Shown: positions 1,384 to 55,876, counted from the stretch's first letter. The stretch is 55,876 nucleotides of DNA from Candidatus Uhrbacteria bacterium (GCA_016205965.1 JACQSM010000069.1:1-55876), one strand, 5' to 3'. The notes: generated from the letters alone by a model not told the origin. A program made the numbers and translations.

Positions 1384-1386
1384 AAT

Positions 1387-2130: not shown

Positions 2131-2143
2131 ACCGTTTTGGATT

Positions 2144-2257: not shown

Positions 2258-2338
2258 GAGCCATGAGCGGACGTGTGTGGCGACCCACATGCGTCTGGTC
2301 AAAAGCCAGCCAAGAAATTGGCTGGCTTTTGTGTTTTT
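2258..2338 (+). repeat. Two-hairpin element, copy 1 (diverged)
   Basis: The first 46 nt (gagccatgagcggacGtGtgtggcgacccacatgcgtctggtcaaa) differ at 2 positions from copies at 48017 and 49620. They are followed by a different 10-bp stem agccagccaa/ttggctggct with a GAAA loop and a T-rich tail. Confidence 0.8.
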
Positions 2339-2397: not shown

Positions 2398-2760
2398 ATG
2401 ACCGAGCAACTGAAAACCTACCTCATCTATTTTTTGACGGGAGGGACGGTGACCGCCCTTATCGTCGGATTCGAGCGGAGCGGCAATAGGATGCTTTCCG
2501 GACTCGCGACGCTCGTACCGGTCTTTACGGTCGTTGCCTATCTCTTCATCGGCGATACGAAAGGCGGCGGAGCGGTTTCACAGCATGCCTGGCTCGTGCT
2601 TTTCGGTTCGCTCGCCTCGTGGGTTCCTTACATGATCGCGGTGGCGATCCTGGCTCCCAAGGTCGGTCCGCACAAGGCTATTCCCATCGGCCTCGCCGTA
2701 TTCTTCGTCTGCGCGCTTGCGTATCTGGAAGTCATACGCCGATACAAGCTGTTTCAGTAG
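2398..2760 (+). CDS. GlpM/DUF3147-like small integral membrane protein
   Basis: 120 aa with about 4 hydrophobic helices. The pattern LSGLATLVPVFTVVAYLFIG resembles the AGLxPLFPxF region of the GlpM family. Confidence 0.7.
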   Translation: MTEQLKTYLIYFLTGGTVTALIVGFERSGNRMLSGLATLVPVFTVVAYLFIGDTKGGGAVSQHAWLVLFGSLASWVPYMIAVAILAPKVGPHKAIPIGLAVFFVCALAYLEVIRRYKLFQ

Positions 2761-2902
2761 TTCGAGAATCCCGTCTTCCGACGATCGCGCGTTGCCGATC
2801 GAGCGATGAGCCGCGGGAGTATTGATCGTCAGGTTTCCAGCCCTCGGTGAAAGTGCTACCATTGGTGCGTATGCCCGCGTTCATCATTTATTTTGATAAT
2901 CC

Positions 2903-2932
2903 AGCCAGCCGCTAAGCTGGCTTTTGATTTTT
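2903..2932 (+). terminator. Hairpin agccagc/gctggct plus T-tract, abutting the next start codon
   Basis: A 7-bp stem with loop cgctaa, then tttgattttt. The stem sequence resembles hairpin 2 of repeat copy 1 (2304-2327). It could be a terminator or a 5' leader structure. Confidence 0.4.
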
Positions 2933-4927: not shown

Positions 4928-4948
4928 AGCAGTTTCTCGTTGGCGATC

Positions 4949-4977
4949 TTGCTACGCCGGCCGCTCGGTGCTAGACT
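4949..4977 (+). promoter_or_regulatory. Sigma70-type promoter of the copper operon (TTGCTA-17-TGcTAGACT)
   Basis: -35 TTGCTA at 4949-4954, a 17-nt spacer, TG at 4969-4970 and -10 TAGACT at 4972-4977. An inverted repeat TGCTA-N9-TAGCA (4969-4987) overlaps the -10 and could be an operator. Confidence 0.5.
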
Positions 4978-5005
4978 GTCGATAGCAATAATCAGGATAA
5001 GCTCC

Positions 5006-5386
5006 ATGAAGCGATTTATTGCCGTCATACTCCTATCGTTGTTCCTCGCTTTCGGCGCGCTGTTCGCGGCCATGAGCGCCGGTTTTGTGCATTCGGCGCA
5101 TGGTTCCATGGCGGCGGCGCCTTCCTGCATGACGGCGTTTTGCCCGGCATCGGAAAATGACGGTCCGACGGCGGCCATGGATTGCTTCAGTCATTGCCTC
5201 TCGGCCGCGGTGAAGGAATTTCCCGCGTCGCCGGTGTTGCCCGCCCTCTTCTTTATCGTGTTGCTGTTGATGGTGTCGGGCCGAAGTTTGTCCACTGTTT
5301 TTGAGGACAATGTCCGGCGCTTCTCCGATATCATAGGAAGATTGCTGCTTCGGCAGAGGCTTTCCACCGTCGTTTTACGGAATTAA
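5006..5386 (+). CDS. Small membrane protein with Cys/His/Met-rich exposed loop
   Basis: The ATG is preceded by AGGA. N-terminal helix MKRFIAVILLSLFLAFGALFAA, motifs CMTAFC and CFSHC plus several Met/His, and a second helix LPALFFIVLLLMV. It is the first gene downstream of the copper promoter. Confidence 0.6.
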   Translation: MKRFIAVILLSLFLAFGALFAAMSAGFVHSAHGSMAAAPSCMTAFCPASENDGPTAAMDCFSHCLSAAVKEFPASPVLPALFFIVLLLMVSGRSLSTVFEDNVRRFSDIIGRLLLRQRLSTVVLRN

Positions 5387-5464
5387 ACCAGGCGTCAGCG
5401 CATGGGGTACGAACGTGCTCCCATGCGTGAGGCGTCTGGTTTTTGTATTCCGTAATACGGTTCT

Positions 5465-7063
5465 ATGCAGGTAACGCTAAGAGTCACGAACTTAACGAAG
5501 GAGACCGCGAAAAACTTCGAAAATGTCGCGGCCTCCATCGAGAATGTAATGGCCGTCGACACGTGGCCGGGCAGGGCGGAGATCGACGTCCTGAAGGAGG
5601 AAGCGATTCCCGCGATTGTCGCCGCGCTCCGCGCGTCCGGCTTCGAGGTTCGCACGGAAAATGAAACGGCGGTTTCCGCCGGTCAGGCCGATGAGACGCA
5701 TCACGTCTACGTCGACGGCATGACCTGCCGGAGCTGCGAAATCACCATCGAACGGAAATTCAAGCGCGTCCGCGGCGTGCGCCGCGCCGACGCCGATGCC
5801 GCCCGCGGCGTCGTGAAACTCGTCTGCGAGGGCGGCTGCGTGCCGGACATCGGCGAACTTCGCGGGGCGCTCAAGGGGCATGAGTATTCGGTGCGGCGCG
5901 TCGGCGCGGGCGATGCCGAGCCGCAAGGAGAACGGCCGTCGTTCATGCGGCTGGTCGGCTTGTTCGCGTTCGTCATCCTGCTCGGTTCGCTGCTTTCGAA
6001 GCTCGGCCTCTTCCGGCAGCAATTCAACGTCGCGGGTTCGATGAGCCTCGCGGCGGCGCTCACGCTCGGCCTCGTCGCCGGTTCTTCGTCGTGCATCGCC
6101 GTTTCGGGCGGGCTGCTGCTTTCATCGGCGGCGAAATTCCGGGAACGCTATGGCGGCCTGTCGGCAACCGGGCGCATGCGGCCGGTCTTCATGTTCGTCG
6201 CCGGCCGCACCCTCTCCTACGGCCTTCTCGGCGGCGCCATCGCCGCGATCGGCAAGGCGTTCACGCCCTCGCCGCTCGTCACCGGCGCGCTCATCGTCGC
6301 CGCCGCCGTCTTCATGCTGGTCATGGGGCTGGACATGCTCAAGATCGCGCCCCGATGGCTCAAGTCGGTCCTGCCGCGCATGCCCAAGTCGCTCTCGCAC
6401 CGGATCTTGGACGCCGAAGGGAAAGAACATCCCGTCATGCCATTCCTGCTCGGCGCGAGCACGTTCTTCCTGCCCTGCGGCTTCACCCAGTCGCTGCAGC
6501 TCTATGCGCTGACGGCGGGAAGCTTCCTGAAAGGCGGGCTGATCCTCGGCGCCTTCGCCCTCGGGACCGCGCCGGCGCTTCTGGCGCTCGGCTGGGCTTC
6601 GAGTTCTTTGAAAGGCAAAGCGGGCCGGCTGTTCTTCCAGTTCTCGGGAGCGCTCGTCATCGTCCTGGGCCTGTGGAACGTCCAGAACGGATTCACCGTG
6701 GCCGGATACCCGCTCTCCTTGCCGGAGCTTGGCACGGGAGCCGTCGCGGCCGGCAACGGCGCGAACGTCGATGTGCCGGAGGTCGTCGATGGCGTACAGG
6801 TCATCAGGATGGCGGTCGGCGGCTCGGATGCGCCGTATTCTCCTGACACGCTCACGGTGAAGGCTGGTATTCCGGTGCGTTGGGAGATCGACGGCGTCAA
6901 CGTCGCCGGCTGCATCTCCTACCTGCAGTCGAGGAAGCTCGGTATCGGCATACAGCTGCGCCAAGGGCTCAACGTCGTCGAATTCACGCCGAAGACGCCA
7001 GGGACGTACGCTTTCAGCTGCTCCATGGGCATGTTCCGAGGCACGATCGAGGTCGTTTCTTAA
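5465..7063 (+). CDS. HMA domain / DsbD_2 (TauE-like) membrane protein / cupredoxin-like fusion
   Basis: An N-terminal Cys-less ferredoxin-like segment is followed by a canonical HMA domain (VDGMTCRSCE). The polytopic core carries conserved Cys (SSSCIAV, FFLPCGFTQ). The C-terminal cupredoxin-like part reads TLTVKAGIPVRWEI...GTYAFSCSMGMFRGTIEVV. Confidence 0.85.
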   Translation: MQVTLRVTNLTKETAKNFENVAASIENVMAVDTWPGRAEIDVLKEEAIPAIVAALRASGFEVRTENETAVSAGQADETHHVYVDGMTCRSCEITIERKFKRVRGVRRADADAARGVVKLVCEGGCVPDIGELRGALKGHEYSVRRVGAGDAEPQGERPSFMRLVGLFAFVILLGSLLSKLGLFRQQFNVAGSMSLAAALTLGLVAGSSSCIAVSGGLLLSSAAKFRERYGGLSATGRMRPVFMFVAGRTLSYGLLGGAIAAIGKAFTPSPLVTGALIVAAAVFMLVMGLDMLKIAPRWLKSVLPRMPKSLSHRILDAEGKEHPVMPFLLGASTFFLPCGFTQSLQLYALTAGSFLKGGLILGAFALGTAPALLALGWASSSLKGKAGRLFFQFSGALVIVLGLWNVQNGFTVAGYPLSLPELGTGAVAAGNGANVDVPEVVDGVQVIRMAVGGSDAPYSPDTLTVKAGIPVRWEIDGVNVAGCISYLQSRKLGIGIQLRQGLNVVEFTPKTPGTYAFSCSMGMFRGTIEVVS

Positions 7064-7076
7064 CCTCTCATTCAGT

Positions 7077-7283
7077 ATGACAACCACACTCATCATCACC
7101 GGCATGCACTGCGCTTCATGCAAAGCGCTCATCGAAGACGTCTGCTCGGAGATCGCCGGCGTGCGCTCTTGTTCGGTCGATGTCGCCAAAGGCGAAGCGG
7201 TCGTCGAACACGACGAGTCCGTCGCTCCGTCGCTCCTCGCGAAGGAAATCGAAGGGCTCGGTAAATACGGCGTCCGCGTATGA
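7077..7283 (+). CDS. copZ: CopZ-like copper chaperone (single HMA domain)
   Basis: 68 aa with [14 protein letters not shown], the GMxCxxC motif. Confidence 0.9.
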
Positions 7284-10012
7284 CCCCTCCAAACTTTCTC
7301 GATATCGGCGCCGCCGGCGAATCGGCGCCGCGGGAAGATGCCGCCGGCCAACCGCCGGCGATCCGACCGTCGGCGGATGCATCGTCGCTTGCCTTGCGAC
7401 TGACCACGGACATCGACGCCAAGGGGAGCCTGCAAGCCGGCCCCGACGGCAAGCCGCAGTTCACGGGGAGTCTCCATATCTCGAAGTCGAACATCATCGA
7501 ATTCCCGGAAGGCGTTCGAGAAGCGGAGGAGTTGGCCAAGCTCCTCCAAAAGACGCTGAACATGGGCGCGATTCTCGAGAAGGCGGGCGCTCTTGAGCCG
7601 GAAGTCCGGCCGATGGCGCTGCCGTCCGCACCGTCAGCTTCGGCCGCCGCCGTGCCGCCGGCCCGCGCGGAGGAGTGTCGCGTCACCTTCAACGTCTTCG
7701 GCATGCACTGCGCCAGCTGCGCCGGCCTCATCGAGCGCAAGGTGAGGAAGGTGCCCGGCGTGAAGGAGGTCAACGTGAATTTCGGCGCTGAGAAAGCGCG
7801 GGTCGTCTTCGCTGGCGGCATTGCCAGTGAAGAGAAGATCAAGGCGGCGGTGAAAGCCGCCGGCTATCGCGCCGAGGTCGCGGACCAGAAGGATCGCGAG
7901 TTCGAACGGAAGAAACGGGCCGAAGAGGTCGCATCCTATAAGAAACGGTTCCTGGTCGGCCTCGTCTTCAGCATCCCGCTCGCGTACTTCATGCTGCTCG
8001 ACTTCTTCGGGTGGATGCCGTTCCGCCAGGCGGTCCTGCCGCGCATGGGCTTCGTTTCGCTTCTGCTCGCGCTGCCGGTCCAATTCATCCTCGGCGCCGG
8101 CTTTTACAAGGGGATGTGGTCGAGCCTGAAGATGAAGACGTTCAACATGGACAGCCTCATCGCCATCGGCACGAGCACGGCCTTCGTCTACAGCCTGTAT
8201 GAGTTCGTCCGTTATGTGGCGAAAGCCGGCACCGTCTGGGCGCCGATGGGCGCGAAGATTCCCGATCTCTACTTCGAGATCGGCGCGTTCCTCATCACCT
8301 TCGTGCTCATGGGCAAATGGCTGGAATCGAAGGCGAAGGGCAGGACGAGCGCGGCCATCGAGAAGCTCATGGGCCTCCAGGCCAAGACCGCCCGGGTCAT
8401 CCGAGGCGCGGCCACGATCGACATCCCGGTCGATCAGGTGGTCGAGGGCGATACGATCGTCGTCCGTCCGGGCGAGAAGATCCCGGTCGATGGCGCCGTG
8501 ACCAAGGGATTTTCCTCGGTCGATGAGTCGATGCTGACGGGCGAAAGCATCCCGGTCGAAAAGAAAGAAGGGGACGCGGTGATCGGTTCGACCATCAACA
8601 AGAACGGCAGCTTCGAGTTCAAGGCGACCAAGGTCGGATCGGAGACCGCGCTCGCCCAGATCATCCGCCTCATCGAGGACGCGCAGGGATCGAAGGCTCC
8701 GATCCAGGCGGTCGCCGACCGCATCTCCGCCTGGTTCGTGCCGGCGGTCATCGGCATCGCCGCCCTGACGTTCGTCGTCTGGTACTTCGTCATCGGCGCG
8801 TCGCTCACTTATGCGCTCCTGGCCTTCGTGTCGGTCATCGTCATCGCCTGCCCCTGCGCGCTCGGTCTCGGAACGCCGACGGCGGTGATGGTCGGCACCG
8901 GCAAGGGCGCCGAGTACGGCATCCTCATCAAGGGCGGCGAACCGCTCGAGGCCGCGTCGAAGGTGAATGCGGTCGTCTTCGACAAGACCGGCACGCTCAC
9001 CAAGGGGAAACCGGAGGTGACCGACATCGTTTCCCTCTCCCAACTGGATGAGGACGACATCCTCGGCCTCGCCGGCAGCCTCGAAAAGTCGTCGGAGCAC
9101 CCGCTGGCGGAAAGCATCTACGAGTACGCCGTCCAGGAGAACGCGCCCTGCGCCGAAGTCACCGACTTCCACGCCGTTCCCGGACACGGCGTCGTCGGCA
9201 AGATCGGCGGCGAGGAATTCCATCTCGGCAACCGCAAACTGATGGCCCAGCTCGGCCTCGACGTGAGCAAGGTCGAACGGAAGCTGCAGCGGCTGGAAGA
9301 GGCCGGAAAAACGGCGATGCTGCTTGCCACCAAGGAGTGCATCATCGGCATCGTGGCGGCGGCCGACACGCTCAAGGATACGTCCCTCGAGGCCGTGCAG
9401 CGGCTCCAAAAGATGAACGTGGCCGTGTACATGATTACCGGCGACAATCAGCGGACGGCGGCCGCCATCGCCAAGCAGATCGGCATCGTCAACGTGCTGG
9501 CCGAGGTGCTGCCGCAAGACAAGGCGCACGAAGTCCGCAAGCTGCAGGAGCAGGGCTTCAAGGTCGCCATGGTCGGCGACGGCATCAACGACAGTCCGGC
9601 GCTGGCCCAGGCCGACGTCGGCATCGCCATGGGCAGCGGCACGGACGTCGCCATGGAAACCGGCGGCATCGTCATCATCAAGAACGACCTTCGCGACGTC
9701 ATCGGCGCGATCCGTTTGAGCAAGTCGACGATGCGAAAGGTGCGGCAGAACCTGTTCTTCGCTCTGTTCTACAACGTCATCGGCATCCCCGTCGCCGCCC
9801 GGCTCTTCGCCGTCTGGAACATCGTGCTCCGGCCGGAACTGGCGGGGCTTGCCATGGTGTTCAGTTCGGTGTCGGTGATCTCGAACTCGCTGCTGCTCAA
9901 GCGGTTCCATCCGCACAAGCGCGATTGGCTGTCGGATCTCGCGCCGGCGTTCATGACCGCCGTATTCACGCTGGTCTTCGCCGGATTCGCTAAATTGAGC
10001 GGGAAGGCCTGA
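7280..10012 (+). CDS. copA: Copper-translocating P1B-type ATPase (CPC type)
   Basis: HMA motif [18 protein letters not shown]6 motif [18 protein letters not shown] and [10 protein letters not shown]. The ATG overlaps the copZ stop as ATGA. A start at 7280 implies about 135 aa of non-canonical N-terminus. The internal Met at 7613 is an alternative start. Confidence 0.9.
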
Positions 10013-10031
10013 ACGCAGTCCATTACGGTGC

Positions 10032-10061
10032 GCGACGGCCGGACCTCACGCCGGCCGTCGC
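10032..10061 (+). other. 11-bp perfect GC-rich stem-loop after copA, without a U-tract
   Basis: gcgacggccgg / ccggccgtcgc with an 8-nt loop. No T-run follows, so terminator function is uncertain. Confidence 0.35.
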
Positions 10062-10085
10062 GTCGTATCTCCGAGGTGCTGAATC

Positions 10086-10094
10086 TGCTAAACT
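10086..10094 (+). promoter_or_regulatory. Extended -10 element TGCTAAACT, 9 nt upstream of the ATG at 10104
   Basis: Lies within GAATCTGCTAAA (10081-10092), identical to 2375-2386. The spacing to the ATG is also identical. Confidence 0.45.
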
Positions 10095-10103
10095 ATAGTG
10101 CGT

Positions 10104-12230
10104 ATGCCCAGTTATACCTGTCCGATGCATCCCGAGATACGACGCGACGCTCCCGGGCTCTGCCCGGAGTGCGGCATGCGGCTGCTGCCGGAGAAAGCCG
10201 AATCCGAACCTCATGGCGGACACGGCGGCATGAAGATGCCGGACGGAGTCGCGCCGCCGGGCAAGCATGAAGGTCATTCGCTCGCGATCTTCGCGCGGAA
10301 GTTTTGGGTGTCATTGTTTTTGACGCTGCCGGTGGTTCTTCAGTCGGGATTGTGGCAGAAGATTTCCGGGCGGCCGTTCCCGTCATTTCCGGGTTCGGCC
10401 TTTTTTCCGTTCGCCCTGGGCTCGATAATTTTTTTCTATGGCGGTTGGGTGTTCCTCCAAGGAGCGTTGCGCGAAGTTCGCGCCCGTCTGCCGGGCATGA
10501 TGACGCTCATCGCCATCGCCATTTCCGCGGCGTATGCCTATAGCGTCTACGCGACGTTCTCGGGCAAGAGCGGCGACCTCTACTGGGAGCTGACGACGCT
10601 CATCACCGTCATGCTGCTCGGCCATTGGCTGGAGATGCGGGCGGTGCAGAGCACGCAGGGCGCGCTCAAGGAACTTTCGAAGTTATTGCCGGACACGGTC
10701 GAGGTGGTGAGGAACGGCAAACCGGAGATCGTCGAACTTTCGGAATTGCGGGAGGGCGATCTTTTCATCGTGCGGCCGGGAGGCAAGGTGGCCGCCGACG
10801 GTGTCGTCGCCGAGGGCAAGACGGAATTGGACGAGTCCATGGTCACGGGCGAGTCGCGGCCGGTGCGCAAGGGAGTCGGGAGCGAAGTGATCGCCGGCAC
10901 GGTCAACGGAGACGGATCGCTCACTGTTCGAGTCACGAAGATCGGCGAAAAGACGTTTTTGGCCGGCGTCATGCGCCTCGTCGCCGAAGCGCAGGCCTCG
11001 AAATCGCGGCTGCAGATCCTTTCCGACCGCGCCGCCCAGGTCCTCACGGTGATCGCCGTCGGCGGCGGGTTTCTCACGCTGACCGCGTGGCTGTTCGTCG
11101 CCGAACCCGGCTACGCCGTCGAACGCATGGTCGCGGTGCTGGTCATCGCCTGTCCGCACGCCTTGGGCCTCGCCGTGCCGCTCGTCGCTTCGATCTCGAC
11201 CATGCTCGCCGCCAAGAACGGGTTTTTGGTCAAACAGCGGCTCGCCCTCGAGGCCGCCAAGGATGTCGACGTCGTTCTCTTCGATAAAACGGGCACCTTG
11301 ACCAAGGGGGCTTATGGAGTCGATCGCGTCTGGAATTTTTCCGGCGCGGATACGGCGGAAGTGTTGCGCCTCGCCGCCGCCGTCGACGGTCCTTCCGAAC
11401 ACGTCATCGCCAAAGCGATCGCGGCCAAGGCGCGGCAGGACGGCATCAGTGTCCAATCCGTTTCCGATTTTTCGCGAGTCCCCGGCAAGGGCGTGAAAGG
11501 CATCGTCGCCGGCGAGGAAATTTCCGCCGGCGGCCGGGCGCTGCTTGAACAGCGCGAAGGCGCCGTCCCGGGGCGCTACGGGACGGAGATCGACGCTGAA
11601 AATAAGAAAGGGAAGACCGTCGTCTACGTGCTGAAGGGTGGGCAACCGTTCGGCGCGATCGCCCTGGCGGACGTCATCCGCGAGGAGTCGCGACAGGCGG
11701 TCGCCGATCTCAAGAACATGGGCCTCAAGGTCGCCATGATCACCGGCGATTCCGAGGACGTGGCCGCCTGGGTGGCCGGGGAGCTCGGCATCGATGAGGT
11801 TTTCGCCAAAGTCCTGCCGGAAAAGAAGGCTGAAAAAGTGAAATTGCTGCAGCAAAAAGGGCAAAAGGTGGCGATGGTCGGCGACGGCATCAATGACGCG
11901 CCCGCGCTGACGCAGGCGGACCTCGGCATCGCCATCGGCGCCGGCACGAACGTCGCCATCGAATCCGCCGGCATCATTTTGGTGAGGAACGATCCGCGCG
12001 ATATCCCCAAGATCATCACGCTTTCGCGTCGCACCTACGCGAAGATGATCCAGAACATCCTCTGGGCGTCGGGCTACAACATCGTCGCCCTGCCGCTTGC
12101 TGCCGGCGCGCTCGCCTTCAAGGGCATCGTGCTGCAGCCGGCCTGGTCGGCGGTTTTCATGTCGCTCTCCACGGTCATCGTCGCGGTCAACGCCATGGCG
12201 CTGCGGAAAGCGAAATTGGGGCGGGAGTGA
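10104..12230 (+). CDS. copB: Heavy-metal P1B-type ATPase, CPH (CopB-like) subtype, with N-terminal CPMHPE metal-binding zinc-ribbon-like domain
   Basis: [24 protein letters not shown] at the N-terminus, then a His-rich stretch HGGHGG..HEGH. TGES, TM motif [18 protein letters not shown] and [10 protein letters not shown] are present. The track ORF starts at GTG 10098; the ATG at 10104 is preferred. Confidence 0.9.
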
Positions 12231-47948: not shown

Positions 47949-48022
47949 TCGGGGGTCGTCTAATGGTAGGACAGCAGCCTTTGAAGCTGCGTGTCATGGT
48001 TCGAATCCATGCCCCCGAGCCA
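47949..48022 (+). tRNA. tRNA-Gln (anticodon UUG), CCA encoded
   Basis: Folds as TCGGGGG-TC-GTCT-AATGGTA-GGAC-A-GCAGC-CTTTGAA-GCTGC-GTGT-CATGG-TTCGAAT-CCATG-CCCCCGA-G-CCA. The U1-A72 pair and G73 discriminator fit bacterial tRNA-Gln. Confidence 0.9.
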
Positions 48023-48092
48023 TGAGCGGACATATGTGGCGACCCACATGCGTCTGGTCAAAGACCCATCACGAAAGTGGTGGGTTTTTGAT
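48017..48092 (+). repeat. Two-hairpin element, copy 2 (overlaps the last 6 nt of tRNA-Gln)
   Basis: Sequence: gagccatgagcggacatatgtggcgacccacatgcgtctggtcaaagacccatcacgaaagtggtgggtttttgat. Hairpin 1 is at 48027-48056. Hairpin 2 (GAAA loop, then TTTTT) is at 48064-48089 and probably acts as the tRNA terminator. Confidence 0.9.
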
Positions 48093-48215
48093 CCCGCGTG
48101 ATACTTTTAGCGCTATTTTTACGCATTCATGCCTGGCCGCCGCTGAGCGCAAGCGATGGGAAGAAGTTCGTCTGCATGGTATCCTCCCAAAAGGAACATA
48201 TTGATAACTAACGAT

Positions 48216-49424
48216 ATGTATAGTTACATCATTCTCCAGGTTCTTGCGGCCGGCGTCGGCATCTTTGCGGCGATACTGGTCATCAAGGGATTGCTCCTCA
48301 TCAGGAGAAAGTCGGATCGCGGCACGAGGATGACGATCGGTGTGGGGGTTTCCGCCCTGCTATTGGCGGCAATTGTCTTTGTCGTTTCAGGAATCTCCTA
48401 TCCGCTGCACTTCGCGATGCCGCCGACAATGCAAGCGATGACGCACGACAAGAAACCCCCGTCCCTGCCGATACTCGCGATGTTCGAGTTCCTTTCCAAG
48501 AGGGACGGGTTCGAGAATGTCGCCGATATCGGCCGGGACCCGAACGAGGTTCCGCTGCCGGCTGGCAGGCGGGCGCCGGAGACCGTGAAGTTTTCCGTCA
48601 AAGCAAAGGAGGTCGTCTCCGAGGTGGCCCCGGGCATCTTCTTCAACTATTGGACGTACGATGGCCAGGTGCCCGGGCCGATGTACCGTGTGCGGGTCGG
48701 TGACTTGGTGGAGCTCACGCTCACGAATGACTCCACGAGCATACATCCGCACAACATCGATCTCCATTCGGTCACGGGCCCTGGTGGCGGTGCCGCGGTC
48801 ACGCTGGTACAGCCCGGTGAGACGAAATCGTTCCGGTGGCTCGCCAAGAATCCCGGACTTTATGAGTACCACTGCGCCACGCCCAACGTCAGCACGCACA
48901 ACTCTCACGGTCAGTACGGACTGATCCTAGTCGAGCCTGAAGGCGGATTACCCGAGGTCGATAGGGAGTTCTATCTGATGCAGGGCGAACTCTACACGAT
49001 GGGCGATATCGGCAAGAAAGGCCTTATGGCGTTCGATACGCAAGGCCTCATCGACGGCACGCCGACCTACATCACCTTCAATGGCAAGATCGAGCAGGCG
49101 CCTCGCATGAAGGCGAAGGTCGGCGACCGCATCCGCATGTACGTGGGCGGTGGCGGGGTCAATCTCATTTCATCATTCCATGTCATCGGGGAGATTTTCG
49201 ATGTCGTATATCCGGAAGGCGCGATTGGCGACGGTTCGGCGGTACTCAAGAACGTGCAGACGACGGCGGTGCTCCCCGGCGGTTCGACGATCGTCGAGTT
49301 CACTGTCGACGTTCCGGGGAAGTACGTGCTCGTGGATCACGCGCTCGCGAGAATGAACAAAGGCGCTTGGGCGGTCCTCGAGGTGACGGGAGATCCGCAG
49401 CCGGATGTCTACACAGCGCTATAG
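48216..49424 (+). CDS. nirK: Copper-containing nitrite reductase (NirK-like two-domain cupredoxin) with N-terminal two-helix membrane anchor
   Basis: HPHNIDLH gives the T1 His, catalytic Asp and T2 His. YEYHCATPNVSTHNSHGQYGLILVEP gives the T2 His and T1 Cys/His. SFHVIGEIFD and LVDHALARM are also present. The track ORF starts at 48156; the ATG at 48216 begins the first TM helix. Confidence 0.85.
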   Translation: MYSYIILQVLAAGVGIFAAILVIKGLLLIRRKSDRGTRMTIGVGVSALLLAAIVFVVSGISYPLHFAMPPTMQAMTHDKKPPSLPILAMFEFLSKRDGFENVADIGRDPNEVPLPAGRRAPETVKFSVKAKEVVSEVAPGIFFNYWTYDGQVPGPMYRVRVGDLVELTLTNDSTSIHPHNIDLHSVTGPGGGAAVTLVQPGETKSFRWLAKNPGLYEYHCATPNVSTHNSHGQYGLILVEPEGGLPEVDREFYLMQGELYTMGDIGKKGLMAFDTQGLIDGTPTYITFNGKIEQAPRMKAKVGDRIRMYVGGGGVNLISSFHVIGEIFDVVYPEGAIGDGSAVLKNVQTTAVLPGGSTIVEFTVDVPGKYVLVDHALARMNKGAWAVLEVTGDPQPDVYTAL

Positions 49425-49537
49425 TTTGGCGCCGTTAGAGGTCTCGACGAGGTAGTCGTTGAACGAGGAAAAACGGAACAGTCCAAAATTAGATAATTGT
49501 GTCCTGTTGATCCGTTTTTGGTTGTGATATAGCTTGA

Positions 49538-49553
49538 GACCCACGTGCGTCTG
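49538..49553 (+). repeat. 16-nt partial copy of the hairpin-1 3' arm
   Basis: gacccacgtgcgtctg is identical to 49645-49660 of copy 3, including the G variant. Confidence 0.6.
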
Positions 49554-49619
49554 CGTGCCGGAAAAGGTCTTGAGAAAGCTCTCAACGGCCTTGCGGGTGG
49601 GGTACCAGACCCGCCTGCG

Positions 49620-49695
49620 GAGCCATGAGCGGACATATGTGGCGACCCACGTGCGTCTGGTCAAAGACCCATCACGAAAGTGGTGGGTTTTTGAT
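49620..49695 (+). repeat. Two-hairpin element, copy 3
   Basis: Identical to 48017-48092 at 75 of 76 positions (cacGtgc versus cacAtgc). Confidence 0.9.
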
Positions 49696-49765
49696 TGCTC
49701 CGGAAACCCCTCAAAAAATGTGGTATAATAACCGCCTGTCTAGTATATCCATGCAAGTTATTTAT

Positions 49766-50785
49766 ATGCTGAAAAAAATATTTTTTTTCTTGATTGCGGG
49801 AGCGGCTCTGGCGGCGATCGCGTGGTTCGGTTATCAGAAATTTACTACTACTACTACTACTACTAAATTTCCTGGGAAAATTACCATTGGTCACACGCCT
49901 TGGCCCGGCTATATCGGATTGTATATTGCAGCTGACAAGGGCTTTTTTAAAGACAACGGTCTTGACGTTGATCTTAAGGCTTATCCTGGACTTGCGGAGC
50001 TCTCTAAGGATTACGTCGCGGGAAACCTCCAGGGGAGAAGCAATTTGACTCTTGATGCCATTAACGAGGCCCATGACGGTTTAGATCAGAAGGTGGTAAT
50101 TGTAATCGATTACAGTAAAGGTTCAGACGGCATCATCGCTTCTAAAAATATCGAGAAATTTTACGATATCAAGGGTAAGAAGGTCGCTTTTGAAGCCGAG
50201 GGCCTCGAGGAGTTTTTTCTTCGTTACGCGTTGAACAATAACCAGATTAGCCTGAATGATATTATCCCCCTCAATCTTGATCCGCAAAAATCCGCTGAAG
50301 CCCTGGTAAAGGGTGAAGCCGATGTCGCGGTGACGTATGAACCGTTCATGGGGAATGCGCTGCTTGAGAGCGGAGGTCATAAAATCTTTACGTCGGCCGA
50401 TGCCCCCGGCTTGATCACCGACGTGCTGACATTCCGTTCCGATTTCGTCAAGGATTATCCGGGAACGATCGAAGCGATCGTCAATGCCTATTTTAGGGCG
50501 ATTCAATTCTGGAAAGAAAATCCCGCAGAGGCCAATAGTATTTTAGCCGAGTATCTTGACACGCCACTGGAACAAGTACCAAGCCAACTTGATGGTGTAT
50601 ACGTTCTTAATAAAGAGGATAACCGGACCGCCTTCACGTTCGCGGCCGGTGTGCAATCCCTTTACGGTAACATGCGGCAAATCGGCGAATTTGTTCATGG
50701 AATTCGTGAGAAACGTGGTGAGATACGCAGGGTTGATACCGATGCCATGATCGACCCAAGTTTTATCCGGAAGATTTCTAAGTGA
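49766..50785 (+). CDS. NMT1/SsuA-like periplasmic substrate-binding protein, with no cognate permease or ATPase nearby
   Basis: Signal/anchor MLKKIFFFLIAGAALAAIAWFG, a Thr7 linker, then ITIGHTPWPGYIGLYIAADKGFFKDNGLDVDLKAY, typical of the NitT/TauT-type binding fold. An alternative ATG is at 49751. Confidence 0.8.
   Translation: MLKKIFFFLIAGAALAAIAWFGYQKFTTTTTTTKFPGKITIGHTPWPGYIGLYIAADKGFFKDNGLDVDLKAYPGLAELSKDYVAGNLQGRSNLTLDAINEAHDGLDQKVVIVIDYSKGSDGIIASKNIEKFYDIKGKKVAFEAEGLEEFFLRYALNNNQISLNDIIPLNLDPQKSAEALVKGEADVAVTYEPFMGNALLESGGHKIFTSADAPGLITDVLTFRSDFVKDYPGTIEAIVNAYFRAIQFWKENPAEANSILAEYLDTPLEQVPSQLDGVYVLNKEDNRTAFTFAAGVQSLYGNMRQIGEFVHGIREKRGEIRRVDTDAMIDPSFIRKISK
49844..49864 (+). repeat. (ACT)7 trinucleotide microsatellite inside the binding-protein gene
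   Basis: Seven perfect ACT units encode a TTTTTTT linker. Confidence 0.9.
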
Positions 50786-50817
50786 GCCGCGCGGCTGATA
50801 TAAACAGACCCCTCTCC

Positions 50818-53019
50818 ATGAAAGTATTGACGAAAGTGACGCTCATAATCTCGACAGGCGCTTTTTTTATGCTGGCGACCGCAGGTTATTTCGTCTTTAC
50901 TGAAACCAAGAACGCGCTGCAGCAAACCATTCGAGACAGACAAAGCGAGCTCGGACATCAAACTATCGACAAGATCGATCGAACGCTATTTGGCTATTAT
51001 GTCGGCATTCAAAACATTGCCGATGAAGAGAGCATTCAGCGAACGTTGAGCGGTGCGGTGCAGGATCGCCGGGAAATCGAACGCCGCATCAAAGAACTTC
51101 CGTTCTTGACCGGCCCGTGGGATGTTCTGAAGATCATTAATTCGCAGGGAGCCATCATAGCTTCCAACTCCCGTCAAGACGCTGAGAAAAATGCGGAGAT
51201 AGAAAAAAATATCGAAAATTTGGCAGCCTTAAAGGAGGCGATCAAGGGCAACGTTTACTACTCTGATTTCCTCTTTACTAAGGACACCGGAAGGCCGACC
51301 ATGATCTTTGCGGCCCCGATTCGTGACCAGGAAACGGCGGATCAACCCATTATCGGCGTCGTGATCGGACATGTCGCCTGGCCAGTGATAAAGGAGATCA
51401 TCGAGGCATCCGATCCGGCCAGCGAATTTGACCTCTATACGCGTGGCGGCGTTCTTATCGCCACGAATCAAGAATCTGCCAAACATCTCTTTCTCAAAAA
51501 TACCGAGATTGAAAGATCCTTGTCTGCTCCGCCCCACGTCGCGAATCTAATTAAAACTGAGGCTGATGAGGGATTTGAAGCATTGGTGACGCGTGCCGAC
51601 TCGCACGGGCATCTGGCCTATAAAGGAAATCAGTGGGCTTTATTCATAGAAACGCCTACGAGCATCGCGTTTGCGCCTGCAATCAGCACCGCACGACGCA
51701 TTGTTCTGGTTCTTTTACCGATTATTTTGTTTATATTGTTCGTTATATTGCTTCTCTTGAGCTCATTAGTGGTTAGACCCATCGTCGATATCACCAAAGT
51801 TTCGAAGGTTATTGCGGTGGGCGACTTTTCAGCTAGAGTGCGGGTGCGGACGAAAGATGAGATTGGCGAACTTGCGATTTCCTTCAACGCCATGACCGAG
51901 AAAATGAGGGAATCGCTAAATATCATCAACATAGAAAGAGATAAGCTGGCGAAGCTTATTGAGAGCATGGGCGATAGCGTTATGGTAATCGACACGGAGG
52001 GAAAGATTACTCTTTGGAACTATGCTGCTGCGTTGCTGACCGGCTGGGAACAGAAGGAGGTAATAGGCAGGCCATTTAAGGATATTTTAAAACTGGTTCG
52101 CGAAGCGGATCGCGCCAGCAATAGTGACTTTATCGTTCGTGCGATCACAGAGAAGGTTAAAAAATCAATGGAAAACCACACCCTTTTGATCCGAAAAGAC
52201 GGGACGGAGATCCCTGTTGCCGATAGTGCCGCCCCGATCATAGATGCGGACGGCGATGTTTGGGGCGCTATCGTGGTATTTCGCGATGTTGCGAAAGAAA
52301 GAGAGTTAGAACGGCTCAAGACCGACTTTGTCGCCATAGCATCGCATGAAATGCGCACCCCCCTCACCCTTATTAAGGGAAACTCGGAACGCCTGTTAAA
52401 GGGTGAATCGATATTGAAAGACGCCAAGTTAACTGAAATGGTATCGAGCATATACCGGAATAGCGATCGTCTTTTCGGTATTGTAAACGATTTTCTCGAT
52501 GTCTTGACGCTTGAGGAGAAACGAATACCATTGAATTTGGAGCATTTCGATCTCGTACCTCTTGTTCATGAGTGCGTTGCGGAGTTCAGAACATTTGCAG
52601 AAGCAAAAAAGATATATTTGAAGATCGATGATCTCTCCGCCTCTCATCAAATGGTGGTAGCGGATAGGGCGCGCGTCAGGCAGGTTATGATCAATCTGTT
52701 GGGAAATGCCATGCGCCACACGGAAAAAGGCGGCGTACGTCTGACCTTTGAAAAGCAGAAAAACTTCATAGAAGTTTCCGTCAATGATACGGGCCCAGGC
52801 ATCTCGAAAGAGAATCAACTCAGGCTATTCAGAAAATTTGGTTCGATTCGGGAGACATTCATCCGTTCAAAGGAGTACGGCAGCGGTCTCGGTCTCTACA
52901 TCAGTAAACTATTGATTGAGGCCATGGGCGGAGAGATCTGGCTGAAAAAAAGTTCTCCTGGCGCCGGAAGTACGTTCAGTTTTACTTTGCGGACTTCCAC
53001 AGACAAGGAGGGCGTGTAA
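50818..53019 (+). CDS. Sensor histidine kinase (TM - Cache-like periplasmic domain - TM - HAMP - PAS - HisKA - HATPase)
   Basis: Two TM helices bracket about 270 aa. HAMP reads DEIGELAISFNAMTEKM and PAS reads VMVIDTEGKITLWNYAAALLTGW. The H-box is ASHEMRTPL, the N-box LLGNAMRHT and the G-boxes DTGPGI and GSGLGL. The track ORF starts at GTG 50782. Confidence 0.9.
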   Translation: MKVLTKVTLIISTGAFFMLATAGYFVFTETKNALQQTIRDRQSELGHQTIDKIDRTLFGYYVGIQNIADEESIQRTLSGAVQDRREIERRIKELPFLTGPWDVLKIINSQGAIIASNSRQDAEKNAEIEKNIENLAALKEAIKGNVYYSDFLFTKDTGRPTMIFAAPIRDQETADQPIIGVVIGHVAWPVIKEIIEASDPASEFDLYTRGGVLIATNQESAKHLFLKNTEIERSLSAPPHVANLIKTEADEGFEALVTRADSHGHLAYKGNQWALFIETPTSIAFAPAISTARRIVLVLLPIILFILFVILLLLSSLVVRPIVDITKVSKVIAVGDFSARVRVRTKDEIGELAISFNAMTEKMRESLNIINIERDKLAKLIESMGDSVMVIDTEGKITLWNYAAALLTGWEQKEVIGRPFKDILKLVREADRASNSDFIVRAITEKVKKSMENHTLLIRKDGTEIPVADSAAPIIDADGDVWGAIVVFRDVAKERELERLKTDFVAIASHEMRTPLTLIKGNSERLLKGESILKDAKLTEMVSSIYRNSDRLFGIVNDFLDVLTLEEKRIPLNLEHFDLVPLVHECVAEFRTFAEAKKIYLKIDDLSASHQMVVADRARVRQVMINLLGNAMRHTEKGGVRLTFEKQKNFIEVSVNDTGPGISKENQLRLFRKFGSIRETFIRSKEYGSGLGLYISKLLIEAMGGEIWLKKSSPGAGSTFSFTLRTSTDKEGV

Positions 53020-53043
53020 TAATCATAGGTACGCAATCACATT

Positions 53044-53427
53044 ATGACCATGAAAAAACGCATTTTGTTAGTTGACGACGAGGATGAAATTCTTTCACTC
53101 TATGGCGAGGTGCTCGCCGAAGAGGGCTTTGAGGTATTGATCGCACATGATGGAGCGGAGGGGGTCAAAGTCGCCAAGCAGGAGAAACCCGACCTCGTCC
53201 TAATGGATCTTAAAATGCCGGTCATGGACGGTATGGACGCATTCATGCAGATTCATGATGACCCTGCCACGCGAGCCATAAAAGTTGTTTTCCTGACCGC
53301 TTTCGGTGATCCTGAAGTGGTGGGGGCTGACATCAAGATATCCGAAGAGATCGGTGCCGCGGGTTATATCAGAAAGGGAATTACACTTGATGAATTAGTA
53401 AAAAAGGTCAGGGAGTATATACGGTAG
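53044..53427 (+). CDS. Stand-alone response-regulator receiver domain (CheY-like)
   Basis: ILLVDDEDE, phospho-acceptor LVLMDLKMPVMDG, FLTAFGD and YIRKG. No output domain (127 aa). Confidence 0.9.
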   Translation: MTMKKRILLVDDEDEILSLYGEVLAEEGFEVLIAHDGAEGVKVAKQEKPDLVLMDLKMPVMDGMDAFMQIHDDPATRAIKVVFLTAFGDPEVVGADIKISEEIGAAGYIRKGITLDELVKKVREYIR

Positions 53428-53465
53428 ATTTCTAGGTGTTCCGAGAGTGAGTTGGTGAGCCACGT

Positions 53466-53493
53466 AAAAGCCGCGCCGTTCGGAGCGGTTTTT
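53466..53493 (+). terminator. Terminator-like hairpin after the receiver gene, preceded by GAGCCACG
   Basis: Stem ccgc-g-cc / gg-a-gcgg with loop gttc, flanked by aaaag on the left and ttttt on the right. gagcca lies at 53457-53462. Confidence 0.45.
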
Positions 53494-53549
53494 ACGTACC
53501 GCGCAATTTCTGATAAGATATGTCGCATAAACGTCTGTTTTTTCGCCAT

Positions 53550-54823: not shown

Positions 54824-55333
54824 TCATTTGACCTCGACGATCGTATAAACGATGTCGCGGCCGTTGGCGGCGACGGTGACCGTTTCGCCGGCGCGGCGGT
54901 CGATGAGGGCTTTGCCGAGCGGGGACAGGTGCGAGATCCTGCCGGCCGCCGGGTTGGTTTCTTGCGAGCCGAGTATTTGATAGGTCCGCCGGTTGCCGTT
55001 GATCATCAGCACCACGGTCGAGCCGATGCGGATTTTGCCGGAAGGATCGGCGCCGGTTTCGATGATGATGGCGTTCTTGAGCCGATCCTTGATCGACAAG
55101 ACGCGGCCGTCGATGCGGCCGAGCCGGGCTTTGGCTTCGGTATAGGCGGCGTTCTCGGAAAGATCGCCCATTTCGCGCGCCTTGGTCAGGTCTTCGACCG
55201 CCTTTGGGCGCTGGACGCGCTCCAGGTCTTCGAGGTCGGCCTTAAGACGGCGGACTTTTTCGGCCGTCATATAATGATCCTCTTGGCGGCCGGCCAGACG
55301 ATCCATCTCTGATTTGCGTTTGGGTACCTGCAT
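54824..55333 (-). CDS. greA: Transcription elongation factor GreA
   Basis: Coiled-coil part LKADLEDLERVQRPKAVEDLTKAREMGDLSENAAYTEAKARL, then the C-terminal domain IRIGSTVVL...ISHLSPLGKALIDRRAGE. The start may instead be MTAEKV at 55270. The upstream part of track ORF 54824..55792 is antisense to the ABC-F gene. Confidence 0.88.
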   Translation of the reverse strand: MQVPKRKSEMDRLAGRQEDHYMTAEKVRRLKADLEDLERVQRPKAVEDLTKAREMGDLSENAAYTEAKARLGRIDGRVLSIKDRLKNAIIIETGADPSGKIRIGSTVVLMINGNRRTYQILGSQETNPAAGRISHLSPLGKALIDRRAGETVTVAANGRDIVYTIVEVK

Positions 55334-55405
55334 AAGGATGGGTCCATGGTAGCCGGACTCGCCCCAGTTGCCAAACCCGTCAGAAACGTGTATCCTGTCG
55401 TGGAT

Positions 55406-55876
55406 ATGGCCAACGATGCGGTCGTGCTTCGCTTCAGCGAAGTGACATTCGGCTACGGCGAGACCAAGCCCATCCTCGATGAGGCCTCTTTTTCGGTGCG
55501 CAACGGCTCCAAGGTCGCGCTCATGGGCCAGAACGGCGCCGGCAAGACCTCGCTCTTCAAATTGATCCTGGGCGAGAACAAACCGCAGGCCGGCGGCATC
55601 TTCACCACGCCCAAAGACGCCGTCGTCGGCCACGCCCGCCAGGTCATTCCGACCGATCAATCTGGTCTGACCGTTCGCGAATGGTTCTCCGGCACATTCG
55701 TCGAAGTGCCGTACAACGTCGACCGGCGCATCGCCGAGGTTCTCGACGCCGTCAATCTCAAAACCGATCTCGATAAAAAACTGGTCGCCCATTCGGGCGG
55801 CCAGCAGGCGCGTTTGCTCCTGGCGTACTCGCTGATCCAGGACCCCGACATCCTGCTGCTCGACGAGCCGACCAAC
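55406..55876 (+). CDS. ABC-F-type ATP-binding protein, 5' part (runs off the window); not in the ORF track
   Basis: My own translation begins MANDAVVLRFSEVTFGYGETKPILDEASFSVRNGSKVALMGQNGAGKTSLFKLILGE. It continues to HSGGQQARLLLAYSLIQDPDILLLDEPTN, giving Walker A, signature and Walker B. Confidence 0.8.
   Translation, partial: MANDAVVLRFSEVTFGYGETKPILDEASFSVRNGSKVALMGQNGAGKTSLFKLILGENKPQAGGIFTTPKDAVVGHARQVIPTDQSGLTVREWFSGTFVEVPYNVDRRIAEVLDAVNLKTDLDKKLVAHSGGQQARLLLAYSLIQDPDILLLDEPTN

What the first reader, a model, noticed from the sequence alone, without database searches (positions are those of the whole stretch)
48216..49424. NirK-type nitrite reductase lacking the axial Met of the type-1 copper site (Gln candidate) and carrying a membrane anchor
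The protein has these NirK signatures:
- HNIDLH: type-1 Cu His, catalytic Asp and type-2 Cu His;
- HC: type-2 His and type-1 Cys;
- SFHVIGE and LVDHAL.

In characterised NirK the type-1 Cu ligands follow Cys-x(7-8)-His-x4-Met. Here the loop reads HCATPNVSTHNSHGQYGLILVEPEGG. There is no Met in the 20 residues after the Cys. The residue at the His+5 position is Gln. A Gln axial ligand is known from stellacyanin-type blue copper sites and shifts redox potential.

The enzyme also has an N-terminal extension of about 110 aa with two hydrophobic helices, rather than a cleavable signal peptide.
Basis: partly seen in the sequence, partly recalled or inferred. Interest (0 to 1): 0.65.

Follow-up and report, generated by a model that had tools for sequence, protein, structure and literature searches.

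The report
Membrane-anchored nitrite reductase with glutamine copper ligand
This gene encodes a copper nitrite reductase, tethered to the membrane, whose electron-entry copper site carries glutamine instead of the usual methionine; the swap is fixed across a large group of enzymes from ultra-small (Patescibacteria/CPR) bacteria and has one solved precedent in Thermus, so it is a real but only moderately novel variant.

Summary
ORF 48216-49424 (+) encodes a 402-aa class II (AniA/HdNiR-like) NirK. All type-2 Cu and catalytic residues are present: His184, His219, His375, Asp182, His322, Ile324. The type-1 Cu set is His179, Cys220, His228 and Gln233. Gln233 aligns with the axial Met of solved NirKs and, by coordinates, with the Cu-bound Gln130 of Thermus TsNirK (6HBE).

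About 100 N-terminal residues form two transmembrane helices and a conserved linker (F-A-M-P-P-x-M-H ... P-S-L-P).

Gln is not a one-off. All 120 closest homologues (59-100% identity, Patescibacteria) carry HN[SA]HGQYG. Sister lineages, mostly Patescibacteria-labelled, share the anchor but keep Met, with one Leu and one further Gln.

NirK with a His2-Cys-Gln site is already known from the TsNirK crystal structure (2019). That enzyme belongs to a distant lineage with a catalytic Ser and an extra cupredoxin domain. The CPR nirK clade was described in 2017 with its Cu ligands reported as conserved. I found no paper noting the Gln.

Verdict: a new variant of a known kind, of moderate interest.

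Side finding: nirK lies just after tRNA-Gln and is bracketed by a 78-nt double-hairpin repeat. The repeat recurs at 2258 and around nirK in related genomes.

The parts
48216..49424 (+). nirK ORF, 402 aa plus stop codon. Start taken at MYSY..., not at the upstream ATG at 48156.
48219..48311 (+). Transmembrane helix 1 (residues 2-32). It has no basic n-region. It is followed by the basic loop RRKSDRGTR, which is predicted to be cytoplasmic.
48318..48392 (+). Transmembrane helix 2 (residues 35-59). It returns the chain to the outside of the membrane.
48399..48470 (+). Conserved juxtamembrane linker motif Y62-P-L-H-F66-A67-M68-P69-P-T-M72-Q73-A-M-T-H-D-K-K-P-P-S-L-P85. F66, A67, P69 and P85 are invariant in 117 of 117 clade members. 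The motif is specific to the Gln clade. It has low confidence (pLDDT below 50) in the monomer model.
48516..49421 (+). Two-cupredoxin-domain NirK catalytic core (residues 101-402).
48750..48767 (+). Sensing loop H179-N-I-D182-L-H184: type-1 Cu His, catalytic Asp and type-2 Cu His.
48870..48920 (+). Type-1 Cu ligand loop H219-C220-ATPNVST-H228-NSHG-Q233-YG. His219 is a type-2 Cu ligand (Cys-His bridge). Cys220 and His228 are type-1 Cu ligands.
48912..48914 (+). CAG codon of Gln233, at the axial-ligand position of the type-1 Cu site.
49179..49187 (+). His322-Val-Ile324: the catalytic His and the Ile that shapes the nitrite pocket.
49338..49340 (+). His375, the third type-2 Cu ligand. In known NirK trimers this residue is donated to the neighbouring subunit.
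47949..48022 (+). tRNA-Gln(UUG) immediately upstream. Its last 6 nt (GAGCCA) are the first 6 nt of the repeat element.
48017..48094 (+). 78-nt double-hairpin repeat element, copy upstream of nirK.
49620..49697 (+). 78-nt double-hairpin repeat element, copy downstream of nirK. It is 99% identical to the upstream copy over 76 nt.
2258..2335 (+). Third copy of the element. It lies at the edge of a low-GC segment and upstream of the copper-handling gene cluster.

Best explanation
The gene encodes a functional, extracytoplasmic copper nitrite reductase (nitrite to NO) of a high-GC, probably Patescibacteria, lineage.

How it is held in place: an uncleaved N-terminal helical hairpin anchors the protein on the outer face of the cytoplasmic membrane. 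In a cell with no outer membrane this does the job that a lipid anchor does for AniA. I recall from memory that the Geobacillus NirK is also lipid-anchored.

How it works:
- An electron enters at the type-1 Cu, which is bound by His179, Cys220, His228 and the side-chain oxygen of Gln233. This is a stellacyanin/TsNirK-like His2-Cys-Gln site.
- The electron crosses the Cys220-His219 bridge to the type-2 Cu, bound by His184, His219 and His375 of the neighbouring subunit.
- There nitrite is reduced, with protons supplied by Asp182 and His322.

The Met-to-Gln change was fixed at the base of a large Patescibacteria NirK clade. Other changes in the ligand loop came with it: Ile/Met229 to Asn, Ala226 to Ser and Phe208 to Trp.

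The most likely effect is to lower the type-1 Cu potential by roughly 100 mV or more and to alter the donor-docking patch. This would match the enzyme to a lower-potential donor than the pseudoazurin or cytochrome c used by classical denitrifiers.

Shown here: the sequence features, the fold, conservation across the clade and the phylogenetic position. Inferred: Cu coordination by Gln, the potential shift, membrane topology, the identity of the donor, and enzyme activity.
For: Family and fold
- TIGR02376 (Cu nitrite reductase) scores 292.7 bits over residues 102-400.
- Sequence matches to solved structures: 6THE 311 bits, 2DV6 301 bits, AniA 299 bits.
- The AF2 core matches 6THE with TMt 0.97 and rmsd 1.2 A.
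- All type-2 Cu and catalytic residues are present.

The Gln
- Gln233 falls in the axial-Met column.
- By coordinates it corresponds to Gln130 of TsNirK: query residue V225 pairs with chain residue 122, so H228 pairs with His125 and Q233 with Gln130.
- The crystal structure of TsNirK shows Gln130 OE1 bound to Cu, and that enzyme reduces nitrite (PMC6400189).
- Gln is invariant in the 120 best homologues and in 117 of 117 full-length clade members.
- The Gln clade is monophyletic and nested among Met-bearing NirKs that have the same anchor.

The anchor
- The two-helix anchor is conserved across the clade.
- The closest Met-bearing representative, P0123, carries a cytochrome b5-like domain at the same N-terminal position. 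This suggests the N-terminal region is where redox modules sit.

Background
- An engineered M150Q AcNiR exists (Kataoka et al. 2003, cited). That it lowers the potential by about 130 mV and impairs electron transfer from pseudoazurin is my recollection, not checked here.
Against: - No coordinates of the model were available, so the Gln-Cu geometry was not measured.
- TIGR02376 falls 3.6 bits below its curated cutoff.
- No electron donor is encoded next to nirK in the window or in the six contigs of close homologues examined.
- The cupredoxin-like domain at 5465-7063 lacks His ligands and looks like a Cu(I)-handling module, not an electron carrier.
- No activity, spectra or potential exist for any member of this clade.
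- The physiological role of NirK in CPR bacteria is itself unsettled (PMC5581439).
Confidence: 0.78

Rival explanations
1. Gln233 does not bind copper. The type-1 site is then three-coordinate, as in the Leu/Phe sites of some laccases, or unoccupied. In that case the protein serves mainly another role, such as oxidase or superoxide-type chemistry, or copper handling, rather than dissimilatory nitrite reduction.
For: - Natural Leu and Ala occur at this position in other class II NirK homologues (P0124, P0132, P0205, P0142, L037). The position therefore tolerates non-ligating residues.
- In L081 nirK sits next to a three-domain multicopper oxidase and a copper ATPase.
- The window carries a copper-handling cluster.
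- CPR bacteria mostly lack respiratory chains (PMC5581439).
Against: - Gln is strictly invariant in 117 of 117 clade members. That argues for a specific ligand role, not mere tolerance.
- In both structurally known cases, stellacyanin and TsNirK, Gln at this position binds Cu through OE1.
- The whole nitrite-reducing type-2 site, including Asp182, His322 and Ile324, is intact.
Confidence: 0.12
2. A methionine from elsewhere supplies the axial ligand, so the site is effectively a normal His2-Cys-Met site. Candidates are the conserved linker (Met68, Met72) and the clade-specific Met380.
For: - The Gln clade, and only it, has the Met/His-rich linker F-A-M-P-P-x-M-H.
- It also has a clade-specific Leu-to-Met change at position 380.
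- These changes arose in the same clade as the Met-to-Gln change.
Against: - Gln233 occupies the canonical ligand position in an otherwise unchanged loop.
- Met68 and Met72 are replaced by Leu in 11 and 17 of 117 sequences respectively.
- The linker is predicted to be disordered (pLDDT 32-42) and not docked.
- Residue 380 follows the type-2 ligand His375 in domain II. From general knowledge of NirK structures this is not near the type-1 site, but I did not measure it.
Confidence: 0.04
3. The Gln is an assembly or sequencing artefact, or the gene is decaying.
For: None found.
Against: - The reading frame is intact.
- The same CAG/Gln position recurs in independent assemblies from NCBI, JGI, ENA and Logan.
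- The core is strongly conserved.
Confidence: 0.01

Closest known systems
TsNirK of Thermus scotoductus SA-01 (PDB 6HBE; PMC6400189)
   Same: A natural NirK whose proximal type-1 Cu is His2-Cys-Gln. The His-x4-Gln spacing is the same. The enzyme is active in nitrite reduction.
   Different: - It belongs to a distant lineage: 110 bits to the query, against 311 bits for 6THE.
- It has Ser instead of the catalytic Asp, Val instead of Ile, and an extra C-terminal cupredoxin domain that covers the type-1 site.
- Its Cys-to-His loop is two residues longer.
- It has no two-helix anchor.

Many Met-bearing NirKs are far closer to the query than TsNirK is, and Met-bearing lineages flank the Gln clade in the tree, which did not include TsNirK. 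The Gln therefore most likely arose independently.
Class II NirKs: AniA of Neisseria gonorrhoeae (1KBV/5TB7), HdNiR (2DV6) and the core of the Bradyrhizobium ORS375 four-domain NiR (6THE)
   Same: The same core fold (TMt 0.90-0.97), 46-50% identity, and identical type-2 Cu and catalytic residues and sensing loop.
   Different: They have an axial Met. AniA is a lipoprotein, and the others carry fused cupredoxin or haem domains. None has the helical-hairpin anchor or the F-A-M-P-P-x-M-H linker.
CPR/Parcubacteria nirK clade (Danczak et al. 2017, PMC5581439)
   Same: The query belongs to this clade. Its nearest named homologues are Patescibacteria, Parcubacteria, Uhrbacteria and Saccharibacteria.
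   Different: [quoted passage not shown] The Met-to-Gln change, the anchor and the linker motif are not mentioned there or in the other papers I searched.
Stellacyanin-type (phytocyanin) blue copper sites, and the engineered M150Q AcNiR (Kataoka et al. 2003)
   Same: A His2-Cys-Gln ligand set. The expected consequences are a lower potential and a more tetrahedral site.
   Different: Stellacyanins are single-domain plant electron carriers. M150Q is a laboratory mutant of a class I NirK. Neither is a relative in the sense of clade membership.

Membership tests
Copper-containing nitrite reductase (NirK, TIGR02376) | Two cupredoxin domains with the NirK fold | tested here: met
   Pfam Cu-oxidase_3 and Cu-oxidase_2 match. 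The AF2 core matches 6THE with TMt 0.97 and rmsd 1.2 A.
Copper-containing nitrite reductase (NirK, TIGR02376) | Score at or above the curated equivalog cutoff | tested here: not met
   292.7 bits against a cutoff of 296.3. The shortfall is 3.6 bits, with E = 3.8e-87 and coverage of profile positions 6-320 of 326.
Copper-containing nitrite reductase (NirK, TIGR02376) | Type-2 Cu bound by three His, plus the catalytic Asp, His and Ile | tested here: met
   His184, His219, His375, Asp182, His322 and Ile324 align with the residues of solved NirKs.
Copper-containing nitrite reductase (NirK, TIGR02376) | Type-1 Cu ligand set His-Cys-His-Met | tested here: not met
   His179, Cys220 and His228 are present, but the axial position holds Gln233. 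The same exception occurs in the solved TsNirK.
Copper-containing nitrite reductase (NirK, TIGR02376) | Homotrimer with nitrite-to-NO activity | not testable with these tools
   Requires protein biochemistry or a multimer model.
TsNirK-type three-domain NirK (class III subgroup, 6HBE) | Gln as the axial ligand of the proximal type-1 Cu | tested here: met
   Q233 corresponds to Gln130 by coordinates (paper).
TsNirK-type three-domain NirK (class III subgroup, 6HBE) | Ser in place of the catalytic Asp in the sensing loop | tested here: not met
   The query has H-N-I-D-L-H. TsNirK has H-G-L-S-I-H.
TsNirK-type three-domain NirK (class III subgroup, 6HBE) | A C-terminal cupredoxin domain carrying a second type-1 Cu | tested here: not met
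   The protein ends at residue 402, right after the core.
TsNirK-type three-domain NirK (class III subgroup, 6HBE) | Close sequence relationship | tested here: not met
   6HBE scores 110 bits (E = 1.3e-30), against 299-311 bits for class II structures.
Patescibacteria (CPR) NirK clade | Groups with CPR NirK sequences to the exclusion of other NirKs | tested here: met
   The closest 120 homologues are, where named, almost all Patescibacteria. The clade is monophyletic in a neighbour-joining tree. A housekeeping gene in the window (PBP1A) has a Patescibacteria protein as its nearest named relative, at 65% identity.
Patescibacteria (CPR) NirK clade | N-terminal two-helix anchor | tested here: met
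   114 of 120 homologues show two or more hydrophobic segments before the core, counting split segments. The anchor is also present in Met-bearing sister lineages.

The most novel reading that the evidence does not exclude
The Met-to-Gln switch, the more polar ligand loop and the clade-specific Met/His-rich tether together re-wire NirK for organisms that lack a cytochrome c or cupredoxin chain.

On this reading the tether acts either as a built-in Cu(I)-loading arm or as a docking or electron-entry element at the membrane surface. The low-potential Gln site accepts electrons from an unconventional low-potential donor, such as a membrane-bound, flavin-based or host-derived carrier. Nitrite would then be an electron sink for fermentative episymbionts.

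Patescibacteria-type NirKs would also offer a natural Gln / Met / Leu axial-ligand series on one scaffold.
Probability: 0.2. Interest if true: 0.65.

Novelty: new variant of a known kind. Interest (0 to 1): 0.42.

Why it matters
NirK is often the only nitrogen-oxide-transforming gene reported in CPR bacteria. Its role and electron supply there are unresolved (PMC5581439).

A clade-wide, invariant Gln at the electron-entry copper site predicts a type-1 Cu potential clearly below that of classical NirKs. That narrows the search for the physiological donor. It also argues against simply equating these genes with denitrifier nirK in metagenomic nitrogen-cycle budgets.

For bioinorganic chemistry, the family offers naturally evolved Gln, Met and Leu axial variants on one scaffold. 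It is also a second, independent natural example of a Gln-ligated NirK, this time with the canonical Asp active site.

The practical test is straightforward: express the soluble domain and a Q233M variant and compare them.

Tried and rejected
- **Upstream start at 48156.** Rejected, because many homologues begin at the MY.. start and are 402 aa long.
- **Internal start at Met39 giving a single signal-anchor.** Rejected, because that Met is not conserved.
- **Adjacent electron donor.** None was found in the window or in the six contigs of close homologues examined. The neighbourhoods differ from contig to contig.
- **Cupredoxin-like domain at 5465-7063 as donor.** Rejected. It has C...C-S-M-G-M and no His ligands.
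- **Papers on Gln or the axial ligand in CPR NirK.** None found.
- **Docking of the linker.** The AF2 monomer leaves residues 58-90 at pLDDT below 50, so nothing can be said.
- **The 78-nt element.**
  - No Rfam family matched anywhere except tRNAs.
  - The consensus terminator scan did not call its second hairpin, because the T-run lies inside the stem.
  - A 27-base pattern found nothing in JGI metagenomes.
  - A looser pattern found one 1.9-kb contig and nothing in viral contigs.
  - No integrase or copper regulator was found beside any copy.
- **First pattern search of the loci.** It was too strict and found nothing. It was replaced by a covariance model.

Full report
**1. The observation**

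The ORF at 48216-49424 (+) is intact and encodes 402 aa. A longer reading from the ATG at 48156 exists. Many of the closest homologues start at MY.. and are 402 aa long, so 48216 is the likely start.

- H179-N-I-D182-L-H184
- H219-C220
- H228-N-S-H-G-Q233-Y-G
- S-F-H322-V-I324-G-E
- L-V-D-H375-A-L

The spacing is Cys-x7-His-x4-Gln. There is no Met within 20 residues after the Cys.

**2. What the protein is**

- Pfam finds the two multicopper-oxidase-type cupredoxin domains.
- The NCBIfam equivalog for Cu nitrite reductase, TIGR02376, matches residues 102-400 at 292.7 bits. This is 3.6 bits under its curated cutoff of 296.3.
- Against solved structures, the best sequence matches are class II NirKs:
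  - core of the Bradyrhizobium ORS375 four-domain enzyme, 6THE: 311 bits
  - HdNiR, 2DV6: 301 bits
  - AniA, 1KBV/5TB7: 299 bits
  - RpNiR: 287 bits
- Class I enzymes (AfNiR, AxNiR, AcNiR) score about 103-105 bits. TsNirK (6HBE) scores 110 bits.
- An AlphaFold2 model built on 22 sequences has mean pLDDT 79.7. Its core superposes on 6THE with TM-score 0.97 and rmsd 1.2 A.
- In the HMMER alignments Gln233 lies exactly on the axial Met. The structures read ...H-I-A-N-G-M-Y-G and the query reads H-N-S-H-G-Q-Y-G.
- The type-2 Cu histidines, the catalytic Asp and His, and the pocket Ile are all in place.

**3. The N-terminal extension**

- Residues 1 to about 100 have no counterpart in the solved structures.
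- A hydropathy scan finds two hydrophobic segments. The model builds them as helices 2-32 and 35-59.
- They are separated by the basic loop RRKSDRGTR. By the positive-inside rule this puts the loop in the cytoplasm and the catalytic domain outside. This topology is an inference.
- Helix 1 starts at residue 2 without a basic n-region, so it is not a canonical Sec signal peptide.
- After helix 2 comes a linker that the monomer model leaves disordered (pLDDT 32-42). It is nevertheless strongly conserved across 117 full-length clade members:
  - F66, A67, P69, P85 and F92 are invariant.
  - M68 is Met in 106 and Leu in 11.
  - M72 is Met in 99 and Leu in 17.
  - Position 73 is His in 87 and Gln in 27.
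- Met-bearing sister proteins have the same two helices but a different linker, Y-P-x-x-L-x-T-[YF]-G-P-S-x-G-P-x-L-P.
- The closest Met-bearing 50%-identity representative, P0123, has a cytochrome b5-like domain in this N-terminal region.

**4. How common the Gln is**

- All 120 best hits in the 5.8-billion-protein collection carry HN[SA]HGQYG. They span 59-100% identity. Where named, they are Patescibacteria, Parcubacteria, Uhrbacteria or Saccharibacteria, with one labelled Methylomirabilis.
- Among the 150 best representatives at 50% identity, five have Gln: four of the same clade plus one separate sequence, P0159. A few have Leu (P0124, P0132, P0205) or Ala (P0142). The rest have Met.
- Among the 80 best loci from one genome per GTDB species:
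  - 20 belong to the Gln clade.
  - A neighbouring set of sequences with the same anchor has Met. Most are labelled Saccharibacteria or Patescibacteria, three are labelled Anaerolinea(les), and two are unnamed uncultured-bacterium MAGs (L021, L023-L027, L029, L031, L036, L040).
  - One has Leu (L037) and one more has Gln (L028).
- A neighbour-joining tree of 129 cores shows the Gln clade as monophyletic and nested among these Met-bearing lineages.
- Gln has therefore arisen several times in class II NirK: in the main clade, in L028 and in P0159. The TsNirK lineage is a further case.
- Substitutions specific to the clade accompany the change:
  - Ile/Met229 to Asn, next to the ligand His228
  - Ala226 to Ser
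  - Phe208 to Trp
  - Val287 to Thr
  - Gly293 to Glu
  - a one-residue insertion at position 338
  - Leu380 to Met

**5. What is already known**

- TsNirK of Thermus scotoductus (PDB 6HBE) was published in 2019. It was described as the first NirK with a His2-Cys-Gln type-1 Cu, stellacyanin-like, with Gln130 OE1 bound to copper, and active in nitrite reduction (PMC6400189).
- By the coordinates of the local alignment, the query's His228 and Gln233 correspond to His125 and Gln130 of 6HBE.
- TsNirK differs in several defining respects, so the query is not a member of that subgroup:
  - a catalytic Ser instead of Asp
  - Val instead of Ile
  - a C-terminal cupredoxin domain that buries the proximal site
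  - a longer Cys-His loop
  - a distant sequence
- The CPR nirK clade was described by Danczak et al. in 2017. [quoted passage not shown] They discuss unresolved electron supply involving cupredoxin and NDH-like proteins (PMC5581439).
- Later CPR papers simply list nirK.
- Searches combining NirK with axial, Gln or type-1 copper terms found nothing on CPR enzymes. So did three nirK phylogeny papers.
- An engineered M150Q AcNiR exists (Kataoka et al. 2003, cited). My recollection, not verified here, is that it lowers the type-1 potential by about 130 mV and slows electron transfer from pseudoazurin.

**6. Mechanism proposed**

- The enzyme is a membrane-tethered, outward-facing NirK trimer.
- Electrons enter at a Gln-ligated, lower-potential type-1 Cu.
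- They pass over the Cys220-His219 bridge to the type-2 Cu.
- There Asp182 and His322 assist reduction of nitrite to NO.
- The more polar loop around His228 probably changes which donor can dock.
- The tether substitutes for a lipid anchor or a periplasm in a cell without an outer membrane.
- Whether its Met/His-rich motif binds copper or contacts a partner is open.
- No donor gene is linked to nirK in the window or in the six related contigs examined.

**7. Surroundings**

- The window has about 63% G+C, with lower-GC segments at 1-2250 and at 48000-53500.
- nirK has GC3 of 0.75, against 0.77-0.87 for most neighbouring genes. The genes downstream of it have GC3 of 0.50-0.55. Those genes encode an NMT1-like binding protein, a Cache-HAMP-PAS histidine kinase and a response regulator.
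- A tRNA-Gln ends at 48022. Its last six bases, GAGCCA, begin a 76-78-nt element. The element recurs, 99% identical, at 49620 just after nirK.
- A covariance model found a third strong copy at 2258-2335, at the edge of the other low-GC segment.
- The element folds into two hairpins (z-scores -6 to -9). The second hairpin is A-tract / stem / U-tract and terminator-like, and it shows compensatory changes between copies.
- The same element flanks nirK on both sides in L081, where the protein is 83% identical, there following tRNA-Asn.
- It precedes nirK in L086 and L087. There it is itself preceded by a 20-nt duplicate of the tRNA-Asn 3' end.
- DNA homology between the window and L081 around nirK is limited to three blocks: the tRNA 3' end plus element, nirK itself, and a 160-nt tail plus element. 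Outside these blocks the neighbouring genes differ.
- In L081 the second copy precedes a multicopper oxidase and an HMBD-type P-type ATPase. The orthologue of that ATPase in the window (10098-12230) lies in the copper cluster downstream of the 2258 copy.
- This pattern fits either of two readings:
  - a recombination (att-like) site through which nirK and neighbouring modules have been shuffled next to tRNA genes
  - a lineage-specific terminator or regulatory repeat
- No integrase or metal regulator was seen. I leave this unexplained (note 3).

**8. Verdict**

The observation and the structural interpretation are correct. The feature is real, under selection and typical of a large uncharacterised clade. 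It is not unprecedented in NirK. The Gln clade sits inside an already described group whose copper ligands were reported as conserved. I rate it a new variant of a known kind, with interest about 0.4.

Noticed in passing
window 48017-48094, 49620-49697, 2258-2335; L081 7889-7965 and 9357-9432; L086 7898-7975: A 78-nt double-hairpin element begins with GAGCCA, the 3' end of a tRNA. It brackets nirK in the window and in L081. It also precedes the copper gene clusters. Compensatory changes occur in its second, terminator-like hairpin. There is no Rfam match and no integrase nearby. It could be an att-like recombination site or a lineage-specific terminator or regulatory repeat.
   Followed up: partly
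window 47949-48022: tRNA-Gln(UUG) lies directly upstream of nirK. In related contigs nirK lies next to tRNA-Asn (L081, L086, L087) or tRNA-Lys (L005). The neighbouring protein genes are not conserved, which suggests that nirK has been relocated repeatedly.
   Followed up: partly
window 49760-53427: A low-GC segment (GC3 0.50-0.55 against about 0.8 elsewhere) encodes an NMT1-like substrate-binding lipoprotein, a Cache-HAMP-PAS histidine kinase and a stand-alone receiver domain. It was probably acquired horizontally downstream of nirK.
   Followed up: partly
window 2398-12230: A copper-handling cluster. It contains an HMA-DsbD_2 membrane protein with a C-terminal cupredoxin-like domain that carries C...C-S-M-G-M and no His ligands (5465-7063). 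It also contains a CopA-type ATPase (7280-10012) and an HMBD-type P-type ATPase (10098-12230). The last has a 74%-identical DNA counterpart just downstream of nirK and a multicopper oxidase in L081.
   Followed up: partly
window 1-2250: A second low-GC segment at the left end of the contig carries a Fic/DOC-family gene (119-1087). It ends at the third copy of the repeat element.
   Followed up: no
P0123 (closest Met-bearing representative, 54% identity): This NirK has one N-terminal hydrophobic helix followed by a cytochrome b5-like domain (Pfam PF00173, E = 4e-10), at the position where the query has helix 2 and the linker. It is a tethered haem module at the N-terminus of a class II NirK.
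   Followed up: partly
L037, L028, P0159, P0124, P0132, P0142, P0205: The axial position of class II NirK homologues varies naturally: Leu (L037, P0124, P0132, P0205), Ala (P0142), and further independent Gln (L028, P0159).
   Followed up: partly
window 54824-55792 (-): The GreA/GreB-family ORF is 322 aa as listed, with about 170 residues before the GreA domains. This could be a mis-called start or a real N-terminal extension.
   Followed up: no
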